Positions 1 to 36,212 are shown, numbered from the stretch's first letter. The stretch: DNA of 36,212 bases from an uncultured Candidatus Saccharibacteria bacterium (GCA_964360975.1 CAYHYY010000004.1:1-36212), one strand, 5' to 3'. Notes: generated by a model not told the origin, from the letters alone. Translations and numbers: made by a program.

Positions 1-48
1 CGGAAATGAGCGGTTTCGGTTCGGGTACCGCGGGTTTCCGGACATGCT

Positions 49-936
49 CTAGCGCGCGTAGCGCGCATAGATACCCGATGGAAGCAGACGGTTCCCACTT
101 GATTCCTCGATGGTCAATTCACCCTGCGAAACACTCCCTTTATGTAATCCAATCAGCGCCTCCAGATTTTGCTTAAATACGAGCGACGAATAGCCTGCCG
201 CGTAGCCATTCAAAAGTACGAAAAGTGGATCATCTATCAAGAGTTTCCCGCAGCTCTCTAAGAGTCCCAGGAAATGTTCCTCGATCTTCCAAAGTTCGTC
301 CTTGGGACCGTGCCCGAATGCAGGCGGATCCATGATAATCGCGTCGTAGCGATTCCCCCGTTTCACTTCGCGCGTCACAAATTTTACCGCGTCGTCAACG
401 ATCCAGCGGACAGGGCTGTTACCGAGCCCCGACCATTCTGCATTCTCGCGCGCCCAATCGACCGCGCTTTTTGAAGCATCGAGATGAACCACCTCCGCAC
501 CAGCTTTTGCCGCTATCAATGTTGCACCACCCGTATACGCGAAAAGATTTAACACTTTTGGAATTCTCTCGGTCGAGGTGCGAGTACTGATTACTTTTTC
601 AATCCACTGCCAGTTCGGCAGTTGTTCAGGGAAAAGACCGACGTGTTTAAACGATGTGGGACGAATGAGAAACGTGAGCCCCCCAAATTGTATCGGCCAC
701 TGGCGCGGCACATCCTTCTTCATGTGCCACGAGCCAGTCGCACCCTTCCGCTCATACCATGCGTCCGCCTTCTCCCAAGCTTCAGGAGCGCGACGCTTCC
801 TCCAGAGCGCCTGTGGGTCGGGGCGAGCTAATACGTATGCACCGAATCTTTCAAGTCTTTCCTCTTCACCAGAATCAATAAGTTCGTACTCCGCGCTTGC
901 CTTTGTAATCTCTGTTTTAAGCTGCATGACTTGCAT
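49..936 (-). CDS. class I SAM-dependent methyltransferase (RlmI/YwbD-like)
   Basis: 295-aa ORF. SAM motif I region VLNLFAYTGGATLIAAKAG and motif IV DAIIMDPPAFG. Alternative start at M4 (927). Confidence 0.75.
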   Translation of the reverse strand: MQVMQLKTEITKASAEYELIDSGEEERLERFGAYVLARPDPQALWRKRRAPEAWEKADAWYERKGATGSWHMKKDVPRQWPIQFGGLTFLIRPTSFKHVGLFPEQLPNWQWIEKVISTRTSTERIPKVLNLFAYTGGATLIAAKAGAEVVHLDASKSAVDWARENAEWSGLGNSPVRWIVDDAVKFVTREVKRGNRYDAIIMDPPAFGHGPKDELWKIEEHFLGLLESCGKLLIDDPLFVLLNGYAAGYSSLVFKQNLEALIGLHKGSVSQGELTIEESSGNRLLPSGIYARYAR

Positions 937-2498: not shown

Positions 2499-3791
2499 TT
2501 ACATAAGTTGAAGATGCCTTGCGATCGGCGTTCCGCTTATGTACTGCATATAGAGCTGCAAAACTTCGGGAAAGTGAGCCTTGACCCAGTTGGGACGAGT
2601 CAGGTATAACTCTGTGAATTCAGCAAAAAGCTCTGAGTAATTCCAATGTTTCTGTCTGAAAATCTTTTTTTCATGCTCAGCAAGCTTCTTAATGTAACGA
2701 CTCTTCATCCGATCATCATACAATTTAAACCCAATCTCCTTAGGTTCCTTCGGAGGCTCTATCGGTTCAGGAGTGTTGTGGTGGAACCACGAGTCAGATT
2801 TTCCTATCAGTACGGCCCTAACCATGTCGTTCATGAGAAGCGTGTGCGATTCGTGATAATTGCTCAGTCCTCCAGTGCCACCAAAGGCATAGAACTCCAT
2901 CGCGTGGCCTAGCTCGTGAGCACAAGCTCTTCGGCTTCGCCCTCCCATTTCGATATACATACGGAACAGCCCGAATGGAAGATCGATGTAGTTACTCGTG
3001 TTCAGTTCAGGCTTGTTATTTCTGTAGAACTTAATCTTAAATTTATTGAGAACAATATGAATCTTCCCTCTGTGCACCGTACAATGTCCTCCTGTACCTT
3101 CCTCTATCTTGTAGTTAGGGTCACCAGTAATCTTCTTCATCTGATCTGCCGTTTTCAATTCTGCTATCCGGTCGATCACTTTTTTCAACTGCTTCTTTTT
3201 TGCGGATTTTTCTCCAAGAATAAAGTGCGCCCCTTTGTTTTCTCGGCGAGAGTCCTTCGGATAATGTCCTGGGGCAAGCTTTGCATAAAATTCACGACCA
3301 AATCTATGAGGACCGAATCCCTCACGATCCTTCTCGACAAAAATCTTATGCAGCCATCTTCCAGATGCATACCCTGCGGTACCGCTAGCGAGAACCGCAA
3401 GGATGCTTGGCGGGAATAAAAACGTACTGGCGATTCCTCCAATGACAGCGACCGGGAGACCGTACGCGCTCGCTTGAAGCTCATTCCATAGAAACTTTGA
3501 AAATCGTGCTACAGACATACCGTACAGCCGAGCAGTATCGCTCGCGCTGACCTTTAGAGTCGATTTTTCAGGAAGTGGCGGTGCATCGTCAGGTAACAAT
3601 TTTATTCCTGGAGGACGCACGGCATTTTCATTCGCTGCTGCATACCGCACTTCTTGAGAGGGTTTTGAAATTGGAAGATCAAAAAGTGATATTTCTGCAC
3701 TCGAGAATCGTGCGAGAAGTGCTTTTTCCCGCTCTGTATTCTCCGTACTGAAGCGAAGGCGCTCATTCATAAAGGGGTAAACATTGTACAA
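2499..3791 (-). CDS. hypothetical membrane-anchored protein with zinc-metallopeptidase motif (HELGH)
   Basis: 430-aa ORF. One hydrophobic segment (GLPVAVIGGIASTFLFPPSILAVLASG) and a single HExxH motif (AHELGHAMEF). No wider family recognised by eye. Confidence 0.5.
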   Translation of the reverse strand: MYNVYPFMNERLRFSTENTEREKALLARFSSAEISLFDLPISKPSQEVRYAAANENAVRPPGIKLLPDDAPPLPEKSTLKVSASDTARLYGMSVARFSKFLWNELQASAYGLPVAVIGGIASTFLFPPSILAVLASGTAGYASGRWLHKIFVEKDREGFGPHRFGREFYAKLAPGHYPKDSRRENKGAHFILGEKSAKKKQLKKVIDRIAELKTADQMKKITGDPNYKIEEGTGGHCTVHRGKIHIVLNKFKIKFYRNNKPELNTSNYIDLPFGLFRMYIEMGGRSRRACAHELGHAMEFYAFGGTGGLSNYHESHTLLMNDMVRAVLIGKSDSWFHHNTPEPIEPPKEPKEIGFKLYDDRMKSRYIKKLAEHEKKIFRQKHWNYSELFAEFTELYLTRPNWVKAHFPEVLQLYMQYISGTPIARHLQLM

Positions 3792-4502: not shown

Positions 4503-6215
4503 CTATTTGACCCCGAACGCCTGCAGGCCCTGCTCATAGGTCAAGACCGATACCCCTGATTGCGCAACCGCATTCATCATTTGCCCGAACGTAATCGATG
4601 GCGTGTAGTACGCATCGTCTCCGGTATTCGCTATCGTATGGAAGACAATCACTTCCCATTTATTGCTCGACTGCCCTTCTGCAATCCATGAAGCGATATC
4701 CGCGACAGTCGTCGTATTCTTTACCTGCCTAACTTTTATGTCGTACGGGAACGCGCCTTGCGGATTGTCGCCAACCTCAAACGTTCGTGCGGACGTGTAA
4801 CCTGAACTTTGCGCATTCCCAATTAATGCCGCGTTGTATGCGCCGAACGGCCACGAGATGCTCTTTATGGTGAGTCCGAGTGCCTCAAGCAATGTCTTCG
4901 AGTTTGCTATCTGCTCAGCTGCTTGCGCCGGGGACAGCGCTACGAGATTCGTATCGTTGTTCATGGCGTGAGAGACTATTTCCCAGCCGCTCGCTTGAAG
5001 CGCTTGCACTTCGGCACTCGTCATGACTCCCGGTTGACCGAGGTCACCGACAGGGATTGATGCCGACCCCTTAAAGCCGTGGACGTCCATGAATGGTTTT
5101 GCGAGCGAGTACACACTGCTTTCTCCATCATCAAACATGATAGTAACCGCTGACCGCACTGTCGGCTCTATGGGGGTCACCGAAACATCATCAAAGTATG
5201 CCGTTCCGGAAGCGCTACCAAGCATTGGAATCACAAAGATGTAATCGATCGGTTTTTGCGTCGCAAGCGTGCCCGTATTGAACCCGATCCAACGCCAGTC
5301 AAAAGTGCCGTGGTTTGGAACAGTGTTCCAGTACCCCACCGTGCCGTCAGTGTAATAAATCTCCGCGTAGAGAGACGCGCCAAACCACGATCCTGATGCC
5401 ATCACTATGCTTTGTCCTTTCACGTACGCTCCAAGAAATACTGGCTTGACCGATGTTTGATGCAGGTCAAACCGTTGATATGCACCTGCAAACTGATTCG
5501 TAGCCGTATTCTGAAGACGAATACCCCATTGGCCAGTGTGCGGCATCGGATAGCGTGCGTACCCGCGCTGAAACGCTTGCCAGTCATAGGCGATTTCCGA
5601 GCCTCCAGATTCAATTTCGAATCCGCCATTATTGAGTACATCAGCGACTACAGGGAGCGTTACCTCACACGTTCCTTGCCCACCATCGCCATTAACTGTT
5701 GCCGTGTACAGCGTCGTTACTGATGGCGAGACTGCTACCGAACCTGCTGAAACTGGGAAGACACCCCCTAAACCGTTATTAAGTGAGACCGACGTTGCAT
5801 TGGTGCTCGTCCATGACAACGCCGAAGATCCCCCAAGGACTATTGCTGTTGGGTTGAGAGAAAGCGTGCATGATGGAGGTACCGAGGATGGTGGAGGTGG
5901 AGGAGGTGGCGGCGGTATGAGAACACACACCCCATTTGATAGCTCGTAGCCGCTCGGCACCGTGATTTGTCGACCGTCTAAATTTGGGCACACGTCGACT
6001 CGAGGAGGCCTGCGAGTACTGCAACGCGTCGGTGTCACTGCAACATCTGATTCCGATTCAAATTGCGAGCGTACGTTACAAACGTACGATACGGCTGCAT
6101 ACGCATTCAGCGAATCACCGTTCGTCACAACCGAGTGTCCGAAATCAATTGAAAACCATGCAACAAATGCAAACGCAACGAGAAAGAACGTGGAACCTAA
6201 TTTGTTTGACATCAT
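4503..6215 (-). CDS. secreted/anchored multidomain polysaccharide deacetylase (NodB domain)
   Basis: 570-aa ORF. In order: N-terminal anchor, poly-Pro linker, Ig-like segment, NGGFE-type carbohydrate-binding-like module, then a C-terminal NodB homology domain (VTIMFDDGESS, IVSHAMNND). Confidence 0.75.
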   Translation of the reverse strand: MMSNKLGSTFFLVAFAFVAWFSIDFGHSVVTNGDSLNAYAAVSYVCNVRSQFESESDVAVTPTRCSTRRPPRVDVCPNLDGRQITVPSGYELSNGVCVLIPPPPPPPPPSSVPPSCTLSLNPTAIVLGGSSALSWTSTNATSVSLNNGLGGVFPVSAGSVAVSPSVTTLYTATVNGDGGQGTCEVTLPVVADVLNNGGFEIESGGSEIAYDWQAFQRGYARYPMPHTGQWGIRLQNTATNQFAGAYQRFDLHQTSVKPVFLGAYVKGQSIVMASGSWFGASLYAEIYYTDGTVGYWNTVPNHGTFDWRWIGFNTGTLATQKPIDYIFVIPMLGSASGTAYFDDVSVTPIEPTVRSAVTIMFDDGESSVYSLAKPFMDVHGFKGSASIPVGDLGQPGVMTSAEVQALQASGWEIVSHAMNNDTNLVALSPAQAAEQIANSKTLLEALGLTIKSISWPFGAYNAALIGNAQSSGYTSARTFEVGDNPQGAFPYDIKVRQVKNTTTVADIASWIAEGQSSNKWEVIVFHTIANTGDDAYYTPSITFGQMMNAVAQSGVSVLTYEQGLQAFGVK

Positions 6216-11639: not shown

Positions 11640-11996
11640 GTGGCTAAGAAGTTATATTTCGGTGGGCTGGCATACAGCACTACCGACGACAGTTTACAAG
11701 CGGCTTGTGCCCCATTCGGGACCGTTGCGTCGGCAAAGGTCATCATGGATCGGGAGACTGGTCGTTCACGAGGTTTCGGATTCGTCGAAATGTCGAACGA
11801 TGATGAAGCAAGCGCAGTTGTTAAAGAGCTTGATGGCAAGGAAATTGATGGACGTGTGGTCCGCGTTTCCGAAGCTCGACCGCAGGAAAATGGCGGCGGA
11901 GGCGGAGGCGGTGGAGGCGGACGTGGAGGTTTTGGCGGAGGTCGCCGCGACTACGGTGGTGGTGGCGGAGGAGGCGGAGGCCGACAGTCTTGGTAA
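11640..11996 (+). CDS. RRM-domain RNA-binding protein with Gly/Arg-rich tail
   Basis: 118-aa ORF with GTG start. RNP2 LYFGGL and RNP1 RGFGFVEM. C-terminal tail has two poly-Gly runs separated by RGGFGGGRRDY. Confidence 0.85.
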   Translation: MAKKLYFGGLAYSTTDDSLQAACAPFGTVASAKVIMDRETGRSRGFGFVEMSNDDEASAVVKELDGKEIDGRVVRVSEARPQENGGGGGGGGGGRGGFGGGRRDYGGGGGGGGGRQSW

Positions 11997-18624: not shown

Positions 18625-18663
18625 TCATACGAAGCAATGAGGGGGTATTCACTGCTTCCCAAA

Positions 18664-18853
18664 AATCCCTCCATATGTGGAGGGATTAAGCTTTGCTTCC
18701 CCGCCGCCGACACTACCATATATGGTAGTGTCGGGATTTACTGGCGGATGCCAGAATGCCCCGTCCCCTTTGGGGCGGGGTGTTCGATAGTCCGGGGGAC
18801 TGTCGAACGGGCGGCATGTTTTACTATCCATTAGCTATAGCTAACAGATAGTA
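18664..18853 (+). repeat. structured mosaic repeat, copy 1 (candidate ncRNA or MITE-like element)
   Basis: Chain of hairpins. 18664-18687 is a 10-bp stem; 18707-18734 is a perfect 14-bp-arm palindrome with a CCATATATGG centre; 18741-18754 is CTGGC-GGAT-GCCAG. P1 is 18759-18780, P2 is 18782-18808, followed by GGGCGGC at 18809-18815 and a terminal imperfect palindrome at 18822-18853. Near-identical sequence occurs inverted at 35998-36123. Confidence 0.65.
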
Positions 18854-18864
18854 TTTCCGCTACA

Positions 18865-18892
18865 TTGTATTTATTGAATCTCGTGCTAAAAT
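18865..18892 (+). promoter_or_regulatory. sigma70-like promoter, leaderless geometry
   Basis: TTGTAT (18865-18870), 16-nt spacer, TGcTAAAAT (-10 at 18887-18892), then 6 nt to ATG 18899. Confidence 0.5.
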
Positions 18893-18898
18893 ATTTCT

Positions 18899-19111
18899 AT
18901 GGTCAGAGAAGGGGATCCTGCAAAGTACGCTACTAGACGCGGTTCACGTGCTGGCAGAGCAGAGGGTAGAACTGAAGATAGGGCCGCGGATAGCAGGTGG
19001 CTTGAACAATATAATAGATTAAAAAATCTCGGTTTTTCTCGCAAAGTGGCAGCGTTCGGTGCTACTGCCGCGGTGTTTGGTTTCGACATCGCCAGAAAAC
19101 TGGACGCATGA
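18899..19111 (+). CDS. 70-aa hypothetical protein (Arg-rich N-half, hydrophobic C-half)
   Basis: Promoter immediately upstream and a hairpin plus U7 downstream. Sequence MVREGDPAKYATRRGSRAGRAEGR...VAAFGATAAVFGFDIARKLDA. No family recognised. Confidence 0.45.
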   Translation: MVREGDPAKYATRRGSRAGRAEGRTEDRAADSRWLEQYNRLKNLGFSRKVAAFGATAAVFGFDIARKLDA

Positions 19112-30207: not shown

Positions 30208-30528
30208 TCAAATGACTGCAATAGCAACGCCAATTCCTACAGCAGTAAGTGCGAACATGATTCCTCTCCAACTCTTTCGAACTAACTTTAATAAAGAACC
30301 CCTTGTTGCCAATGTCTCGTCGGCAGCAACAAGCATGCGTATTTTGGTTTCTGTCAGTCGTCTGCCAGAGGTGTAAACGGTCCGGGGTCGTATCTGAAAT
30401 GATGAAGGATTCCATTCTTCTGCGCTCAGTGTCTCAATACGGCCGGATCCTAAATCTGCCATGGACTTTGCAAACGGCTCTCTCACGCGAAATCGCATCA
30501 TTCCGGATTCTTTTCCATTTTCACTCAT
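30208..30528 (-). CDS. 106-aa hypothetical tail-anchored membrane protein
   Basis: Has a consensus promoter immediately upstream. Single C-terminal TM helix (IMFALTAVGIGVAIAVI). Occupies the position where rimM normally sits. Confidence 0.5.
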   Translation of the reverse strand: MSENGKESGMMRFRVREPFAKSMADLGSGRIETLSAEEWNPSSFQIRPRTVYTSGRRLTETKIRMLVAADETLATRGSLLKLVRKSWRGIMFALTAVGIGVAIAVI

Positions 30529-30536
30529 CAGTTAAC

Positions 30537-30564
30537 ATTATACCTTTCTATTTTCCTATGTCAA
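30537..30564 (-). promoter_or_regulatory. consensus sigma70 promoter, near-leaderless
   Basis: Minus strand: TTGACA (30564-30559), 16-nt spacer, TATAAT (30542-30537), then 8 nt to ATG 30528. Confidence 0.6.
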
Positions 30565-30580
30565 CGTAATCCAATGGCCA

Positions 30581-30624
30581 TTAACGACCTCCGATGTCGT
30601 TATAACGACATCGGAGGTCGTTAA
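30581..30624. repeat. 44-nt perfect palindrome
   Basis: TTAACGACCTCCGATGTCGTTA | TAACGACATCGGAGGTCGTTAA, with 22-nt arms and no spacer. Lies 16 nt upstream of the -35 box at 30564. Confidence 0.9.
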
Positions 30625-30641
30625 TTTATTGATTGGTTGAG

Positions 30642-30730
30642 CGCAGGATGATGCGGACGCCAGAACTCCCCGCCCCTCTCTGGGGCGGGGAGTTCGATAG
30701 TCCGGGGGACTGTCGAACGGGCGACGTTTT
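30642..30730 (+). repeat. structured mosaic repeat, copy 2 (Y core only)
   Basis: CGCA-GGATGA-TGCG at 30642-30655. P1 at 30668-30690 is CCCCGCCCC-tctct-GGGGCGGGG. P2 at 30692-30718 is identical to copy 1. GGGCGAC at 30719-30725. Sense strand is opposite to the surrounding genes. Confidence 0.6.
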
Positions 30731-30736
30731 TACACT

Positions 30737-30764
30737 AAAAGCCCCCGCAATAGCGGGGGCTTTT
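30737..30764. terminator. bidirectional intrinsic terminator downstream of the KH-domain gene
   Basis: AAAA, then GCCCCCGC-AATA-GCGGGGGC (8-bp GC stem), then TTTT. Confidence 0.75.
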
Positions 30765-30782
30765 AGCTCATCTAACTTTAAT

Positions 30783-31157: not shown

Positions 31158-31348
31158 AACGGGATATTAAATTATAAGGCTTCGCCTTTCTGGCTTCCTC
31201 GGCTCGGGAAAGCAATTTAGGAAACTTGCATTCCTCTCGCTCCACGTCGCCAGCAGCGACAGCCGTCACAAATGTACCAAAAAATGAGCCGTCTTGCAAC
31301 GGGGTCATGCTGCCTTTGAGTCCTCTGCCGCTGAGGCCCCCCTGCCTT

Positions 31349-31714
31349 TTATACGGGAACTTCTTCCTGAGATGCACCAGCTTTCGCCTCAGCTGCTACA
31401 GGTGGCACCCCATCTTTTTTTGCTTCTTCTTCCTTCGCTGGAGGATGCTTCTTGCCGAGTACGTTTACCTTCTTTCCTTCTATGACGCCTTTCGTAATAA
31501 GAAGATTGTTGACTGTCCCCGAAATTTCAGCGCCCTTAGAAATCCAATGCTTTACAGAATCTGCATCGATAACCGTATGCTTGGTCTTTGGATTATACGA
31601 GCCAAGAACCTGGAGTGGATTCCCCGCCTTCGGGCTTCGCGCTTTCTCAAGGACAACGATGCGAAATGCCGGGTCGTTCTTACGTCCAGTGCGCTGAAAA
31701 CGAATAGTGAGCAT
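31349..31714 (-). CDS. rpsP: 30S ribosomal protein S16 with charged C-terminal extension
   Basis: ORF 31349-31978 trimmed to M89 (ATG 31714). MLTIRFQRTGRKNDPAFRIVV is the canonical S16 N-terminus; the sequence upstream of it is translated repeat DNA. Confidence 0.9.
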   Translation of the reverse strand: MLTIRFQRTGRKNDPAFRIVVLEKARSPKAGNPLQVLGSYNPKTKHTVIDADSVKHWISKGAEISGTVNNLLITKGVIEGKKVNVLGKKHPPAKEEEAKKDGVPPVAAEAKAGASQEEVPV

Positions 31715-31721
31715 GCGGCAA

Positions 31722-31750
31722 AGACTAACAGGAAAGCCACGAAACGTAAA
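31722..31750 (-). promoter_or_regulatory. putative rpsP promoter, leaderless geometry
   Basis: Minus strand: TTTACG (31750-31745), 17-nt spacer, TGtTAGTCT (-10 at 31727-31722), then 7 nt to ATG 31714. Confidence 0.45.
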
Positions 31751-31786
31751 GGGGGCGCTCATTTTCATTTGCTCAAAGCGTAACCC

Positions 31787-31953
31787 ATAGTAAAACAAGC
31801 CGCCCGTTCGACAGTCCCCCGGACTATCGAACACCCCGCCCCAAAGGGGACGGGGTGTTGAGCGGGCGGCACCGGGGTGTTTTTCTAGGCAGAGAATCGG
31901 CCTCCGCCGATACTGGTTTACCCTCAATCCCCGCGGCATAGCCGCGGGGCATT
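31787..31953 (-). repeat. structured mosaic repeat, copy 3 (X module + Y core)
   Basis: Read on the minus strand. The X module has hairpins at 31949-31929 (9 bp) and 31911-31896. The Y core has P1 at 31855-31834 and P2 at 31832-31806, enclosed by a 7-bp closing stem GCCGCCC/GGGCGGC (31870-31864 with 31805-31799). Confidence 0.6.
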
Positions 31954-31999
31954 GAAACCTAGTAATGCGGCGCATCACTTGACGAGGTATAGTATTCTC

Positions 32000-33925
32000 G
32001 TGAAAAGATCCCCTCCTTCCCCAAGCGCACCATCAAAGCCCGGCCGAAAAACCGGGGTGCTTGATGTGACGCGGTCAGGCCGTGGATTCCTTCTCGACCC
32101 CGAGGGAGACATTCCTATTCCGCGAGAAGCACTCGGAGGCGCGCTTGCGGGAGACATTGTTGAAATAGCCCTTCGACAAGGAAGAGCTGAGACTATTGGA
32201 CGTGTAGTAAATATTCTCGAAAGAAAGACGGGGGCATTTGTAGGCACCCTCGTCAAGTCACCGATTGGCGTCGTTCTCAAGGCCGATAACCCGCGTGTCT
32301 ATTTTAATTTCTTGGTAGTCGGTTCCCCTGGTGCACCGGTCGGGCACAAAGCGGTCGTCGATGTTGTTGATTGGGACGGGAAGCCACCAAAGGTAAAAAT
32401 CCGAGAAGTGTTCGGACCAGCTGGCGATCACCATACCGAAATGAAGGCCATCGTGGCCGGCAAGGGTTTTGAAACGGAATTCCCCCATACAGTGATAGAA
32501 GAGGCAAAAAAACTCTACTCCTCTGGATTGACGACTGTAGAGATCGTGAATCGGAGAGATTTTAGAAGCACATTGACGCTCACCATTGACCCCGAGACGG
32601 CAAAAGATTTTGATGACGCAATTTCTTATAAGAAGCTCCCGGACGGCGCACTCGAGATAGGCGTTCACATTGCCGATGTGACCCACTTTGTGAGGCCGAG
32701 CTCTGCCCTCGACCAAGAAGCATTCAAGCGCGCCACCTCCATCTATCTCGTCGACCGAACCATCCCCATGCTCCCGCCACAGCTTTCTGAAGACCTTTGT
32801 TCCCTAAAGCCTGATGAAGATCGACTCGCCTTTTCCGCGGTATTTATCGTAATAAATGGAAAAGTCTCCGATAGCTGGTTTGGCAAATCTATCATCCGCT
32901 CCCAGAAGCGATTTACCTATGAAGACGCCGATGAGACCATAAAAAACCATACACTCCCCCTTCACCGTGAGCTTGCAGAGATTTGGAAATTCGCATCACA
33001 CCTTCGAAAAGAGCGCTTCAAATCCGGCGCCATAATGTTCGGCACTGACGAAGTAAAGCCGATCGTTGACGAAAAGGGCAACGTGACTGGTTTCAAGCGT
33101 ACTGAATACACCGAGTCCCACCAGCTCATTGAGGAATTAATGCTCCTCGCCAATCGCGAGGTCGCGGGCATGGTTTCAAAGCGTCTTGGGCGAAAGAGCC
33201 GCTTGTTTATCTATCGCATCCACGATGTGCCAAATGCCGAAAAAATTGATGAGCTTGCCATATTCTTGCGCGCGATTGGCTACCAACTGTCACTCTCGAA
33301 AAAAGGAGCTTCACAACAGGAGCTCAACAAAATTCTTTCTGAAGCGAAAGGGAAGCCCGAGGAAAAACTTATTACGACGGCGACTATTCGCTCAATGACG
33401 AAAGCGGTGTACACAACTAAAAACATCGGGCACTACGGACTCGCCTTCCAAGACTACGCGCACTTCACCTCCCCCATTCGGCGCTACCCCGACATCATGG
33501 TCCATCGAGCGCTCGCGGCGATACTTTCCGGCCAAAAAATTACTGAGAAACCTGAAGACTTAGAAAAAAAAGCTCTGCACGCTTCAGAGCGTGAGGTTGC
33601 AGCAGCAGAAGCAGAACGAGCCTCAATCAAGCTGAAACAGGTAGAGTTTTTCTCCAGGAAAATTGGTGAAGTCCGCAAAGGCATTATTTCAGGAGTAACC
33701 GAATGGGGACTTTACATTGAGGACAAAGAAACTGCTGCGGACGGTATGGTCCGCCTTACCTCTTTGACGGATGACACCTACGAGTACATTCCTAAAAAAT
33801 ACGCAGCGGTGGGTACCCGTACCAAAAATCAGTACCGCATGGGCGACCCCGTCACCTACCGCGTCGAAGCGGCGGATATTGAAGCGCGCACGCTCGATTT
33901 CTCGCTCATTCAGGGTCCCGCCTAA
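32000..33925 (+). CDS. rnr: ribonuclease R / exoribonuclease II family (RNB + S1 domains)
   Basis: ORF from TTG 31952 trimmed to GTG 32000, which lies 6 nt after TATAGT; the earlier start would overlap repeat copy 3. RNB motif DPETAKDFDDAIS. C-terminal S1-like RKGIISGVTEWGLYIE. Confidence 0.9.
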   Translation: MKRSPPSPSAPSKPGRKTGVLDVTRSGRGFLLDPEGDIPIPREALGGALAGDIVEIALRQGRAETIGRVVNILERKTGAFVGTLVKSPIGVVLKADNPRVYFNFLVVGSPGAPVGHKAVVDVVDWDGKPPKVKIREVFGPAGDHHTEMKAIVAGKGFETEFPHTVIEEAKKLYSSGLTTVEIVNRRDFRSTLTLTIDPETAKDFDDAISYKKLPDGALEIGVHIADVTHFVRPSSALDQEAFKRATSIYLVDRTIPMLPPQLSEDLCSLKPDEDRLAFSAVFIVINGKVSDSWFGKSIIRSQKRFTYEDADETIKNHTLPLHRELAEIWKFASHLRKERFKSGAIMFGTDEVKPIVDEKGNVTGFKRTEYTESHQLIEELMLLANREVAGMVSKRLGRKSRLFIYRIHDVPNAEKIDELAIFLRAIGYQLSLSKKGASQQELNKILSEAKGKPEEKLITTATIRSMTKAVYTTKNIGHYGLAFQDYAHFTSPIRRYPDIMVHRALAAILSGQKITEKPEDLEKKALHASEREVAAAEAERASIKLKQVEFFSRKIGEVRKGIISGVTEWGLYIEDKETAADGMVRLTSLTDDTYEYIPKKYAAVGTRTKNQYRMGDPVTYRVEAADIEARTLDFSLIQGPA

Positions 33926-35242: not shown

Positions 35243-35413
35243 CTACTTGCCAGGGGGTGGAGGTGGAGGCGGAGGCTCAGGTCTTGGAGTCACAGGGTCT
35301 CCGAAACCACCGTCACCAGGCTTGTTTGGATTTGGAGGTCTACGATCGAAGGCGAGAATGTCTCGATGAGAAGACGAATACGCATTACGTAGATTTTCAA
35401 TACTTCGCGACAT
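35243..35413 (-). CDS. possible 56-aa Pro-rich mini-protein
   Basis: Hand-translated: MSRSIENLRNAYSSSHRDILAFDRRPPNPNKPGDGGFGDPVTPRPEPPPPPPPPGK. A GATAAT box (35427-35422) lies 8 nt upstream of the ATG, the same geometry seen at other genes here. Confidence 0.35.
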   Translation of the reverse strand: MSRSIENLRNAYSSSHRDILAFDRRPPNPNKPGDGGFGDPVTPRPEPPPPPPPPGK

Positions 35414-35807
35414 AACAAAAAATTATCGGGATGGTAATGGAGCTATTACGGTTATGTGAAAATCGGACGAGTATTACCTCGTCCAATAGAAGAAAGAGAA
35501 AAGCGACGCGGATGCGCTTTGTGCAAACTGTAATGTCTGCGTCGCTGACATAAAGATAATAATAGCAAATGACGCACGTCCGTCAAGCTACCCGGCATGT
35601 GTGCACACGTCAGTACACATATCAGAGCAACACGCTGACATTTTGGTAATGCGGACTGTTCAAGATGTTAGTGAGATATTAAGGCGGCCGTACGCACGGT
35701 ATCTGTTAGTGGCCAGATACTTCGCATGGGTTATCAAGGTCCCGCTCCCTCCTTCCATTGACGTACCGACAAGCGCATTGTGGTTCAAAATTCATTTTTT
35801 ATACCGA

Positions 35808-36123
35808 TACTATCCATGAGCTATAGCTAATGGATAGTAAACTACCCCGCAGCAGAGCTGCGAGGCATTAAGAAAGCAGCTCTGCTGCGGGGACCGGGGT
35901 AGTTTTCTGGATATGGATGCGGCCTCCGCCGCTCTTTTTATCTGTCCATTCATCCCCAGAGCAGAGCTCTGGGGCATTCTGGACGGCCAGTAAAAACGCC
36001 GCCCGTTCGACAGTCCCCCGGACTGTCGAACTCCCCGCCCCAAAGGAGACGAGGCATTCTGGCATCCGCCAGTAAATCACGACACTACCATATATGGTAG
36101 TGCTGGCGTGGTAAGCAAAGCTT
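35808..36123 (-). repeat. structured mosaic repeat, copy 4 (Y + X + long hairpin + terminal palindrome)
   Basis: Read on the minus strand. The Y module spans 36123-35998 (palindrome 36106-36080, CTGGC-GGAT-GCCAG 36072-36059, P1 36054-36033, P2 36031-36005). It is followed by the X module (35978-35893), a 17-bp hairpin (35892-35845) and the terminal palindrome (35839-35808). Confidence 0.7.
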
Positions 36124-36180
36124 CCCCCACCAGCACTCGGAAAGAATGAACATGAGGTATATTCATTCTCTTCCTCGTTT

Positions 36181-36212
36181 GGCGTGGTAGTTTTCTGGAT
36201 ATGGATGCGGCC
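36181..36212 (-). repeat. partial further X module (copy 5), truncated by the window edge
   Basis: GGCGTGGTAGTTTTCTGGATATGGATGCGGCC closely matches 35895-35926, so the array continues beyond the window. Confidence 0.6.

What the first reader, a model, noticed from the sequence alone, without database searches (positions are those of the whole stretch)
18664..18853. Repeated hairpin element that keeps base-pairing on one strand only (candidate novel structured RNA or single-strand mobile element)
A core of about 65 nt occurs four times: 18751-18815 (+), 30660-30725 (+), 31799-31870 (-) and 35998-36062 (-). The consensus is CCAGAAUGCCCC GUCCCC UUU GGGGCGGGG U GUUCGAUAGUCC GGG GGACUGUCGAAC GGGCGGC. 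It folds into two adjacent GC-rich hairpins, P1 and P2. The differences between copies preserve pairing only in this sense. P2 has a U.G pair in copies 1-3 and C-G in copy 4. In copy 4, the P1 5' arm is CCUCGUCUCC, which gives two G.U pairs; the complementary strand would have A-C mismatches. Copy 2 loses the bulged U and changes the loop from UUU to UCUCU. The in-frame ATG is absent in 2 of 4 copies and the substitutions are non-synonymous, so a coding explanation is weak. Flanking modules add further hairpins, including palindromes centred on CCATAT(A/G)TGG. I could not match the element to tRNA, RNase P, SRP, tmRNA, CRISPR or any riboswitch I know. This density of structured repeats is unusual for such a compact genome.
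Basis: seen in the sequence. Interest (0 to 1): 0.7.

Follow-up and report, generated by a model that had tools for sequence, protein, structure and literature searches.

The report
Mosaic hairpin repeats between Patescibacteria genes
A double-hairpin DNA repeat of about 65-100 bases, with several companion palindromes, has been copied into the untranscribed gaps between promoters and terminators of one groundwater Patescibacteria genome; it looks like a REP/MITE-type repeat family, not a demonstrated RNA gene.

Summary
The repeat is real. The core (P1 hairpin, P2 hairpin, GGGCGRC-N-TTTTAC tail) occurs four times in the window at the stated coordinates (chance expectation 0). A fifth copy lies on another contig of the same Hainich groundwater population. 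The host is a Kaiserbacteria-like Patescibacteria (CPR) bacterium. The core travels with at least eight other palindromic modules, which recombine into different mosaics in four intergenic spacers. Assemblies break at these modules, and both ends of the window contig are repeats.

All three resolvable core copies lie outside the neighbouring transcription units: one between a terminator and the next promoter, two between divergent leaderless promoters. Relatives with conserved synteny have short, empty spacers at those sites.

The "pairs on one strand only" pattern holds for P1/P2 (four C/U sites, all opposite G). But it rests on three independent lineages (p=0.125) with no compensatory double changes. 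There is no Rfam, plasmid or phage match, no tandem periodicity, and no transposase in the window.

Best reading: a lineage-specific family of non-autonomous foldback repeats, REPIN/BIME- or MITE-like. A structured-RNA role is not excluded but is unsupported. Modest interest.

The parts
18744..18827 (+). Core copy 1: small hairpin GGCGGATGCC, P1 (18759-18780), P2 (18782-18808), tail GGGCGGCATGTTTTAC
   Evidence: 109.7 bits
30653..30737 (+). Core copy 2: P1 with C-G in place of U.G and loop UCUCU. It lies between the KH-gene terminator and the promoter of the 106-aa gene
   Evidence: 94.7 bits
31787..31870 (-). Core copy 3. Its core is identical to copies 1 and 5, and it is the inner part of the foldback 31788-31887
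   Evidence: 103.3 bits
35986..36069 (-). Core copy 4: two extra C-to-U changes in the P1 5' arm, and C-G in P2
   Evidence: 97.1 bits
31788..31887 (.). Foldback of about 100 nt (c3 version). TIR-like ends TAGTAAAACAAGCCGCCCG / CGGGCGGCACCGGGGTGTTTTTCTA close a three-way junction holding extended P1 and P2. The same composite (147 nt, 96% identical) is at L002 519-665
18664..18688 (.). Module A: hairpin ATCCCTCCATATGTGGAGGGAT (single copy seen)
18708..18733 (.). Module B: palindrome CGACACTACCATATATGGTAGTGTCG. Also at 36080-36102, L002 127-145 and L002 667-685
   Evidence: (D11)
36080..36102 (.). Module B, second window copy
   Evidence: (D11)
18822..18853 (.). Module D: palindrome TACTATCCATTAGCTATAGCTAACAGATAGTA. 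Two C.A mismatches on the + strand become G.U on the - strand. Also at 35808-35839 and L002 340-371
   Evidence: (D8)
35808..35839 (.). Module D, second window copy (one mismatch that breaks pairing on both strands)
   Evidence: (D8)
30580..30625 (.). Module H: perfect 46-nt loop-less palindrome immediately upstream of the -35 box of the 106-aa gene (single copy seen)
   Evidence: (I7)
31868..31909 (.). Module F (CGGGGTRKTTTTCT...GGCCTCCGCCG). Also at 35890-35931, 36183-36212 (cut by the contig end) and in L002
   Evidence: (D5, D6)
35890..35931 (.). Module F, second copy
   Evidence: D5, D6
36183..36212 (.). Module F, third copy, at the right end of the contig
   Evidence: (D5)
31906..31963 (.). 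Module G2: foldback GATACTGGTTTACCCTCAAT-CCCCGCGGCATAGCCGCGGGG-CATTGAAACC. The same module is at L002 726-784, also just upstream of a gene
35954..35974 (.). Module G1: hairpin CCCCAGAGCAGAGCTCTGGGG, preceded (on the core-sense strand) by the same TTTACTGGC..CCAGAATG leader as P1
35845..35892 (.). Module E: 17-bp GC-rich hairpin with a 14-nt loop. A diverged copy is at about L002 286-334
36102..36134 (.). Module K: imperfect hairpin GCTGGTGGGGGAAGC-TTT-GCTTACCACGCCAGC (- strand). A copy is in L002 at about 252-283, and its right half is at 18688-18698
1..52 (.). Module Z at the left end of the contig. It recurs at 96% identity at L021 1338-1389, downstream of the ComEC-like gene
30739..30767 (-). 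Context, not a repeat: intrinsic terminator of the KH gene (AAAAGCCCCCGCTATTGCGGGGGCTTTT)
30537..30564 (-). Context, not a repeat: perfect sigma-70 promoter TTGACA-16-TATAAT, 8 nt before the ATG at 30528

Best explanation
The core is one module of a lineage-specific family of short, GC-rich foldback (palindromic) DNA repeats. These repeats have been copied into intergenic 'safe' gaps of a Kaiserbacteria-like Patescibacteria genome, where they pile up next to and inside one another as mosaics. In kind they are a REPIN/BIME-like or MITE-like non-autonomous repeat family.

Shown here: at least five core copies and at least eight companion modules, in shuffled order and in both orientations; near-identical recent copies at unrelated loci; placement outside the neighbouring transcription units; empty orthologous sites in relatives.

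Inferred: copies are made at the DNA level through a hairpin intermediate, by an enzyme encoded elsewhere in the genome (for example a Y1/HUH transposase of the IS200/IS605-RAYT type). Recombination between shared modules then reshuffles the arrays. The imperfect U.G/T.G positions would then mark the recognised strand. Any effect on the host, such as insulating or terminating stray transcription, would be secondary.
For: Real repeats: 4 hits against 0 expected. A fifth copy lies in a second locus of the same population.

Recent copying: copies c1, c3 and c5 are 98.5-100% identical over 66 nt although they sit at unrelated loci, while c2 and c4 are 85-89% identical to the others.

Modularity: the same modules appear in different orders. 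IG1 has A-K'-B-core-D. IG4 has K-B-core-G1-F-E-D. L002 has X-X-B-F-K-E-D...core-F-B-G2.

Foldback anatomy: the c3/c5 version has TIR-like ends and both DNA strands fold equally (-57.9 and -56.4 kcal/mol).

Assembly breaks: independent Hainich assemblies of the same strain end inside the modules. Both ends of the window contig are repeats.

Placement: copy 2 sits between the KH terminator and a 12/12 consensus promoter. Copy 3's mosaic sits between the retained divergent rpsP and RNase R promoters. Copy 1's mosaic fills the divergent spacer, leaving 39 and 45 nt to the two start codons.

Empty sites: relatives with the same gene order have 53-81 nt in the RNase R-rpsP spacer against 285 nt here. 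They have no core copy and no comparable repeats in 11-20 kb. The closest sister lineage has only a terminator and a promoter after the KH gene.

Stems vary less than non-stem positions: 4/42 against 9/25 columns. This is expected if the hairpin is what gets recognised.

No match to Rfam, plasmids or phages.
Against: No transposase or RAYT is encoded in the window, and the rest of the genome could not be examined.

No clean target-site duplication was found. Junctions show only short direct repeats (TTTACT; TACCNCG; a 20-nt GATACTGRTTTACYCTCAAT). These fit recombination between paralogous arrays as well as they fit insertion.

Only five core copies could be recovered, so the genome-wide copy number is unknown.

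No filled-versus-empty polymorphism was seen within the population: all sibling contigs are 99.9-100% identical.

The 4/4 one-strand wobble pattern and the low stem variability would also fit a functional RNA.
Confidence: 0.6

Rival explanations
1. The core is a strand-specific structured RNA: a multi-copy small RNA gene, or an RNA element transcribed on its own, whose P1/P2 fold is maintained by selection on the reader's 'sense' strand.
For: All four variable stem positions are C/U opposite G, so the sense strand keeps 100% pairing against 90.5% for the antisense strand. The sense RNA fold is 6-10 kcal/mol better. Stems vary less than loops and tails. The 3' end is constant, GGGCGRC-N-UUUUAC, a weak terminator-like tail. 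Copy 2 is followed on the same strand by a canonical hairpin plus U-run.
Against: No pair has a change on both sides. Only three lineages are independent and p=0.125. Any transition in a palindrome leaves a wobble on exactly one strand, so the pattern is expected without selection. Neighbouring modules show the opposite bias: D in IG1, and E and G2 in L002. No consensus promoter lies upstream of any copy. Orientation relative to neighbouring genes is inconsistent. With DNA parameters the two strands are nearly equal. The core is absent from relatives, so there is no phylogenetic conservation. No Rfam family matches.
Confidence: 0.15
2. The modules are host-serving DNA or RNA signals, with copy number a by-product. 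They could be insulators or bidirectional terminators that stop stray transcription between closely packed, leaderless transcription units. They could also be binding sites for a nucleoid or regulatory protein, as proposed for E. coli BIMEs.
For: Every resolvable copy lies exactly between transcription signals. Several modules are GC-rich stems followed by U-rich tails on one or both strands, for example GGGG-UAGUUUUCU and GGGCGGC-AUGUUUUAC. P1 resembles the genuine KH-gene terminator of a relative, CCCCGCCCTCT-TAG-AGAGGGCGGGG in L014. Modules B, D and H are loop-less, two-fold symmetric palindromes of the kind bound by dimeric proteins.
Against: Relatives manage with 53-96-nt spacers and no such elements. 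Terminators between divergent promoters have no obvious use. The module order is not conserved between loci. The U-tracts are short and interrupted. None of this was tested functionally.
Confidence: 0.15
3. There is no dedicated mobility. The copies arose by segmental duplication and gene conversion of promoter-proximal spacer DNA, with later microhomology-mediated rearrangement.
For: Long composites are shared between loci: 138 nt between IG1 and IG4, and 147+60 nt between IG3 and L002. The IG3/L002 composite has the same orientation relative to the downstream gene at both loci. Junctions carry short direct repeats rather than uniform target-site duplications.
Against: The shared blocks are small (25-150 nt), never include coding DNA, occur in both orientations, and are inserted between intact, conserved promoter and terminator signals. 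That precision is more typical of small mobile elements than of segmental duplication.
Confidence: 0.08
4. The hairpin repeats are a guide-RNA array of the CRISPR or TIGR-Tas type. TIGR arrays have been described in Patescibacteria.
For: TIGR-Tas systems occur in parasitic bacteria and their arrays lack strong sequence conservation (abstracts of PMC12045711 and bioRxiv 10.64898/2026.09.09.750476). L002 begins with two tandem 55-nt units.
Against: No periodic tandem array was found in the window or in L002. The copies are dispersed over 17 kb in both orientations. No Cas-like or Nop-domain (Tas-like) gene appears among the window ORFs scanned.
Confidence: 0.01

Closest known systems
REPINs / REP sequences mobilised by RAYTs (Pseudomonas, Enterobacteria)
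   Same: Extragenic. Built from short imperfect palindromes. [quoted passage not shown] Flanking A/T runs suggest a terminator-like side effect. Near-identical copies sit at unrelated loci.
   Different: No RAYT gene was found (window only). Copy number is unknown. The arms are not two copies of one REP: one arm carries P2 as a branch. Clusters mix many different palindromes rather than one REP in alternating orientation. No conserved GTAG-type tetranucleotide lies next to P1 or P2. The host phylum is Patescibacteria. My two literature searches turned up no description of such elements there, but they did not look for RAYTs or REPINs by name.
BIMEs (bacterial interspersed mosaic elements) of E. 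coli
   Same: Mosaic clusters of palindromic units and other short motifs in intergenic DNA, in variable combinations (established knowledge: Gilson et al.).
   Different: BIMEs are built from a few REP types (Y, Z1, Z2) in a regular alternating order with defined linker motifs. Here at least nine unrelated palindromes occur without a fixed grammar. No data on IHF, gyrase or Pol I binding.
Bacterial MITEs (Correia/NEMIS, ERIC, RUP, BOX, cyanobacterial Nezha and small dispersed repeats)
   Same: Length of 60-150 nt, foldback potential, TIR-like ends in the c3/c5 form, intergenic location near promoters and terminators, and nested, modular arrangement (BOX elements are also modular; cyanobacterial small repeats insert into one another; established knowledge).
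   Different: No uniform terminal inverted repeats across all copies. No target-site duplication. No related IS known. The 5' boundary of the core varies between copies while the 3' boundary is fixed.
IS200/IS605-family ends and PATEs (palindrome-associated transposable elements)
   Same: Subterminal imperfect hairpins whose mismatch makes one DNA strand distinct. A conserved short motif lies a fixed distance from the hairpin at the element boundary: here the core always ends in TTTTAC, 11-14 nt after P2. IS608 inserts 3' of TTAC (established knowledge; a lead from memory, not a test).
   Different: No TnpA or TnpB nearby. Left and right ends cannot be assigned. The TTAC resemblance may be coincidental, because TTTAC(G/T) is also the local -35-like hexamer.
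Rho-independent terminators of the same clade
   Same: P1 (CCCCGYCCC...GGGGCGGGG) and modules E and G are GC-rich stems like the genuine KH-gene terminators in the window, L014, L015 and L023. Several are followed by U-rich tails.
   Different: The core copies are not at the 3' ends of genes, their U-tracts are short and interrupted, and two copies sit between divergent promoters.

Membership tests
REPIN / REP-RAYT system | Short imperfect palindromes located outside genes | tested here: met
   All five cores and all companion modules are intergenic. P1 and P2 each carry one T.G position in most copies.
REPIN / REP-RAYT system | [quoted passage not shown] | tested here: inconclusive
   The c3/c5 form folds as a foldback of about 100 nt with inverted arms. 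One arm carries P2 as an extra branch, and the c1/c2/c4 forms have a different, non-inverted 5' flank.
REPIN / REP-RAYT system | A cognate RAYT (Y1/HUH transposase) gene in the genome, typically flanked by the repeats | not testable with these tools
   None among the window ORFs.
REPIN / REP-RAYT system | Tens to hundreds of copies per genome | not testable with these tools
   Five cores in about 38 kb, and assemblies that break at the modules, suggest many copies. No genome-wide count was possible.
MITE | Terminal inverted repeats shared by all copies | tested here: not met
   TIR-like ends are present only in c3/c5. The 5' boundaries of c1, c2 and c4 differ (18688, 18744, 18759), while the 3' boundary is constant.
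MITE | Target-site duplication of fixed length | tested here: not met
   No uniform duplication. Only heterogeneous short direct repeats occur at some junctions.
MITE | Empty sites in related genomes | tested here: met
   Orthologous spacers in L012-L015 and L023 lack the modules and are much shorter. These relatives are only 80-84% identical in TrmD, so exact insertion points cannot be read.
Any Rfam RNA family | Score at or above the family's gathering threshold | tested here: not met
   0 hits at gathering score for the whole window. The best sub-threshold hits are generic hairpins: mir-616 31.3/100 bits, sbcD 30.4/40, DsrA 19.4/60.
Conserved structured RNA (generic) | Compensatory base-pair covariation | tested here: not met
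   0 of 21 pairs change on both sides. Four pairs vary on one side only. Too few independent copies for a fair test.
CRISPR / TIGR arrays | Regular tandem repeat-spacer periodicity with an adjacent effector gene | tested here: not met
   No periodic array and no effector-like domains in the window ORFs.
IS200/IS605 ends / PATE | Subterminal imperfect hairpins plus conserved cleavage tetranucleotides at both ends; TnpA in the genome | not testable with these tools
   A constant TTTTAC lies 11-14 nt 3' of P2. This is suggestive only: ends cannot be assigned and the genome is unavailable.
Intrinsic terminator | GC-rich hairpin immediately followed by a U-tract, at the 3' end of a transcription unit | tested here: inconclusive
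   The simple scan flags the core tail only through a minor 5-bp stem. The copies are not at gene 3' ends, except c2, which lies beyond a genuine terminator.

The most novel reading that the evidence does not exclude
The core is copied through a single-stranded intermediate that reads one strand only. That could be ssDNA handled by a RAYT/IS200-like Y1 enzyme, which would make this the first REPIN-like system in the streamlined Patescibacteria. It could instead be an RNA that is reverse-transcribed; diversity-generating retroelements (DGRs), which supply a reverse transcriptase, have been surveyed in candidate phyla radiation genomes. Three observations would fit: the 4/4 one-strand wobble pattern; the fixed U-rich 3' end with variable 5' ends, which resembles 5'-truncated copies; and the T.G positions retained in most copies.
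Probability: 0.2. Interest if true: 0.55.

Novelty: new member of a known kind. Interest (0 to 1): 0.35.

Why it matters
Patescibacteria genomes are small and tightly packed, so a proliferating family of foldback repeats is unexpected housekeeping baggage. It would show that REP/MITE-like selfish DNA can persist even in these reduced genomes.

Practically, these modules fragment metagenome assemblies of this population: every sibling contig ends in one. They also cause spurious gene calls, such as the 87-residue extension of rpsP. Knowing about them helps binning, scaffolding and annotation.

If a cognate single-strand transposase exists, the system would offer a compact model of how hairpin elements and their host coexist. 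As it stands this is a lineage-restricted curiosity, not a new class of element.

Tried and rejected
1. Rfam at gathering score over the whole window, and permissive scans of all four repeat regions: nothing credible.
2. tRNA/tmRNA search: none.
3. Scans of public collections with the P2 pattern. Genome contigs gave only an isolated P2 look-alike in a Firmicutes MAG. Metagenome contigs gave one true relative (L002) and one isolated look-alike. Four viral-contig scans with P2, P1+P2, module B and module D gave 0 hits.
4. Protein search with a concatenated six-frame translation of the core, meant to catch ORFs miscalled over other copies: it found only the window's own rpsP call.
5. Fetching sibling assemblies: all are the same strain, with no filled/empty polymorphism.
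6. Fetching syntenic loci of six relatives through TrmD homologues, then searching with blastn, nhmmer and the covariance model: no core copy.
7. Extending L002 through its ComEC-like gene. This gave only short contigs, although they revealed module Z. The 11.6-kb contig listed for that protein (which NCBI also holds) was not returned.
8. Hammerhead-type three-way-junction ribozyme, considered for c3/c5. The junction strands (CUCA / U / AA) do not match the CUGANGA / GAA / H core, and no Rfam ribozyme hit was found. Rejected by inspection.
9. Coding explanation.
10. A consistent orientation rule relative to genes or to replication. Rejected after correcting the gene calls: rpsP is on the - strand, the 185-aa + ORF is spurious, and ORF70 is probably real.
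11. blastn against annotated plasmids and phages: no match.

Full report
WHAT IS IN THE SEQUENCE

The interval 18664-18853 is a block of five adjacent hairpins in a 274-nt spacer. The repeat finder recovers it as families D2-D4 and I1-I4. A 42-nt core pattern allowing 3 mismatches gives 4 hits against 0.00 expected in shuffles. A covariance model built from the copies scores them at 94.7-109.7 bits and finds no other full copy in the window.

The core consists of:
- P1 (CCCCGUCCC / GGGGCGGGG);
- one unpaired base;
- P2 (GUUCGAUAGUCC-GGG-GGACUGUCGAAC);
- a constant tail, GGGCGRC-N1-3-UUUUAC, where similarity between copies stops.

The 5' boundary differs between copies.

HOST AND SOURCE

The window encodes rpoB, rpoC, dnaG, rpoD, trmD, rpsP, a KH protein, RNase R and hisS. 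The best named TrmD relatives are Patescibacteria / Candidatus Kaiserbacteria, at no more than 84% identity. Identical proteins occur only on contigs from Hainich groundwater wells H51 and H52, mostly from the 0.1-um filter fraction. The window is an entire 36,212-bp contig.

MORE COPIES

A scan of metagenome contigs with the P2 pattern found L002 (Hainich H51). L002 carries a fifth core (518-601, -; 103.7 bits) inside about 800 nt made of the same companion modules, upstream of a ComEC-like MBL gene.

Two other hits, L001 (a Firmicutes MAG) and L003, contain only the 25-nt P2 palindrome in unrelated contexts and match no RNA family.

Other searches found nothing more. These were four viral-contig scans, a six-frame 'miscalled ORF' protein search, plasmid and phage blastn, and covariance-model searches of all fetched loci.

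Five copies therefore had to suffice. Three of them (c1, c3, c5) are identical over the core, so there are only three independent lineages.

THE ONE-STRAND CLAIM

On the antisense strand the same four sites are C.A, and 90.5% of cells pair. The sense RNA fold is 6-10 kcal/mol better. With DNA parameters the strands differ by only 0.9-2.2 kcal/mol.

Its weight is small, for four reasons:
- Any transition in a palindrome leaves a wobble on exactly one strand. The only question is whether all four fall on the same strand, and the two-sided probability of that is 0.125.
- No pair shows a compensatory double change.
- The neighbouring modules disagree. In L002, modules E and G2 favour the strand opposite to copy 5. 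Modules B and K in IG4 favour the same strand as copy 4.
- The complete 18640-18860 block folds equally well on both strands (z -9.9 and -10.0).

Stems are less variable than non-stem positions (4/42 against 9/25 columns, Fisher p=0.012). Three of the nine non-stem columns come from a single indel shift, so that p-value is optimistic. This points to some constraint on the hairpins. It does not say whether the constraint acts on RNA, on single-stranded DNA or on duplex DNA.

A MOSAIC OF MODULES

All-against-all comparison of the window and L002 shows that repeats are confined to four spacers (IG1 18664-18853, IG2 30580-30737, IG3 31788-31963, IG4 35795-36212) plus L002. They are built from recurrent units:
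- A;
- B (CACTACCATATATGGTAGTG);
- the core;
- D (TACTATCCATTAGCTATAGCTAATGGATAGTA);
- E;
- F;
- G1 and G2;
- K;
- H, a perfect 46-nt palindrome.

The order differs between loci. IG4 differs from IG1 by about 155 nt inserted between the core and D, and from L002 by about 200 nt inserted between K and E. The junctions carry short direct repeats (TTTACT; TACCNCG), and L002 has a 20-nt direct repeat flanking a 77-nt insert. These are not uniform target-site duplications.

The c3/c5 version of the core is a foldback of about 100 nt. Its TIR-like ends close a three-way junction, and the two DNA strands are equally stable. There is no tandem periodicity.

The window's left end (1-52) is another dispersed module; it recurs at L021 1338-1389. 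Sibling assemblies of the same strain are 99.9-100% identical and end inside the modules. This is the behaviour of multi-copy repeats.

WHERE THE COPIES SIT

After correcting the gene calls, the context is clear. rpsP starts at about 31714 on the - strand. The database call P0001 has an 87-residue spurious extension across copy 3.

- Copy 2. Reading the - strand, the order is: KH stop (30783), canonical terminator (30767-30739), core, palindrome H, a 12/12 consensus promoter TTGACA-16-TATAAT (30564-30537), 8 nt, then the ATG at 30528.
- Copy 3. Relatives have the RNase R and rpsP promoters back-to-back in 53-81 nt, each with its -10 box 6-8 nt from the start codon (leaderless). The window keeps both promoter regions: TATAGT at 31988-31993 before the GTG at 32000, and TTTACG-17-TAGTCT before rpsP. 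The 176-nt mosaic lies between them, upstream of rpsP's -35 box.
- Copy 1. Its mosaic fills the divergent spacer between the PD-(D/E)XK nuclease gene and a small ORF (18899-19111) that has its own terminator-like hairpin. It leaves 39 and 45 nt to the two start codons.

The copies are therefore not in the neighbouring genes' transcripts. That argues against a leader or riboswitch role, and it is what purifying selection would leave for neutral insertions.

RELATIVES

Six syntenic loci from relatives (TrmD 80-84% identical) contain no core, and the four long ones (11-20 kb) have no comparable dispersed repeats. The expansion is specific to this lineage. The genuine KH-gene terminators of relatives (for example CCCCGCCCTCT-TAG-AGAGGGCGGGG in L014) resemble P1. 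The modules may therefore descend from clade-typical terminator hairpins.

INTERPRETATION

The most economical reading is a family of non-autonomous foldback repeats of the REP/REPIN-BIME or MITE kind. They are copied at the DNA level into intergenic gaps and reshuffled by recombination.

REPINs are the closest structural analogue. [quoted passage not shown]

Membership cannot be claimed. No RAYT is in the window, the copy number is unknown, the arms are not simple REP doublets, and there are no uniform TIRs or target-site duplications.

The mechanism (a hairpin recognised on one strand by a Y1-type enzyme) is inference. The constant TTTTAC end recalls the TTAC target of IS608, but TTTAC(G/T) is also the local -35-like hexamer, so I give that resemblance little weight.

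Rivals, in order of credibility:
- an independently transcribed structured RNA (0.15);
- host-serving insulator, terminator or protein-binding sites (0.15);
- plain duplication and gene conversion without mobility (0.08);
- a CRISPR/TIGR-like array (about 0.01, contradicted by the anatomy).

VERDICT

The repeat is real and unannotated, and it is unusual for a streamlined Patescibacteria genome. It belongs to a well-known kind of bacterial repeat. The feature that made it look special, pairing kept on one strand only, is not statistically supported and is contradicted within the same interval. Interest 0.35; novelty: new member of a known kind.

Noticed in passing
window 35440-35520 (+); L012 about 3072-3186, L014 about 3220-3294, L015 about 3675-3708: An intergenic segment conserved across relatives. 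It has a nearly invariant AGCTATTACGGTTATGTGAAAA motif followed by a hairpin whose stem changes in a compensatory way (GGACGAG/CTCGTCC here, CTGGGC/GCCCAG in relatives), then AAATAGAAGAAAGA. It could be a conserved small RNA or a promoter plus leader. No Rfam hit. It is unrelated to the repeat family.
   Followed up: partly
window 30528-30564, 31714-31755, 31988-32002, 18865-18901; L012 6287-6339, L013 7311-7391: Promoter -10 boxes sit 6-8 nt from the start codons of rpsP, RNase R, the 106-aa gene and probably ORF70, here and in relatives. This implies leaderless mRNAs and back-to-back divergent promoters in spacers as short as 53 nt.
   Followed up: partly
window 1-52; L021 1338-1389: The left end of the contig (CGGAAATGAGCGGTTTCGGTTCGGGTACCGCGGGTTTCCGGAC...) is itself a dispersed repeat, 96% identical to DNA downstream of the ComEC-like gene. 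Three independent assemblies stop within about 50 nt of it.
   Followed up: partly
window 31349-31978 (-), protein P0001; window 31226-31783 (+): The database gene call for ribosomal protein S16 carries a spurious 87-residue N-terminal extension translated from repeat copy 3. The true start is MLTIRFQRTGRK at about 31714. The 185-aa + strand ORF antisense to rpsP is spurious.
   Followed up: yes
L001 306-389 (-); L003 2605-2629: The exact 25-nt P2 palindrome (TTCGACAGTCCGGGGGACTGTCGAA) occurs in an Acutalibacteraceae MAG, downstream of tRNA-Pro and directly after another hairpin (36 bits against the core model). It also occurs in an unrelated metagenome contig. This is probably convergence of terminator-like hairpins, but the exact identity is unexplained.
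   Followed up: partly
L002 1-55 and 67-121; L014 12116-12160: A 55-nt unit (GACCACACTTGGATTCTCTAGGACGGAGTACCGTCAAGAGAATCTCGGCGG) is tandemly duplicated at the end of L002. A copy 84% identical lies just upstream of rpoB in the 831-kb genome GCA_019752595.1. It is the only module shared with a relative.
   Followed up: no
L014 8697-8742; window 30668-30690: The KH-gene terminator of relative L014 (AAAAACCCCGCCCTCTTAGAGAGGGCGGGGTTTTTT) resembles P1 of copy 2 (CCCCGCCCCTCTCTGGGGCGGGG). This hints that the repeat hairpins derive from ordinary terminators of this clade.
   Followed up: partly
window 30580-30625: A perfect 46-nt palindrome without a loop (ATTAACGACCTCCGATGTCGTTA|TAACGACATCGGAGGTCGTTAAT) lies 15 nt upstream of a consensus -35 box. 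Only a single copy was seen. It could be an operator-like site or another foldback module.
   Followed up: no
window 5886-5921, 11891-11992, 35252-35296: GGN-rich (glycine-codon-like) low-complexity repeats in three ORFs or putative ORFs. They are unrelated to the hairpin family.
   Followed up: no
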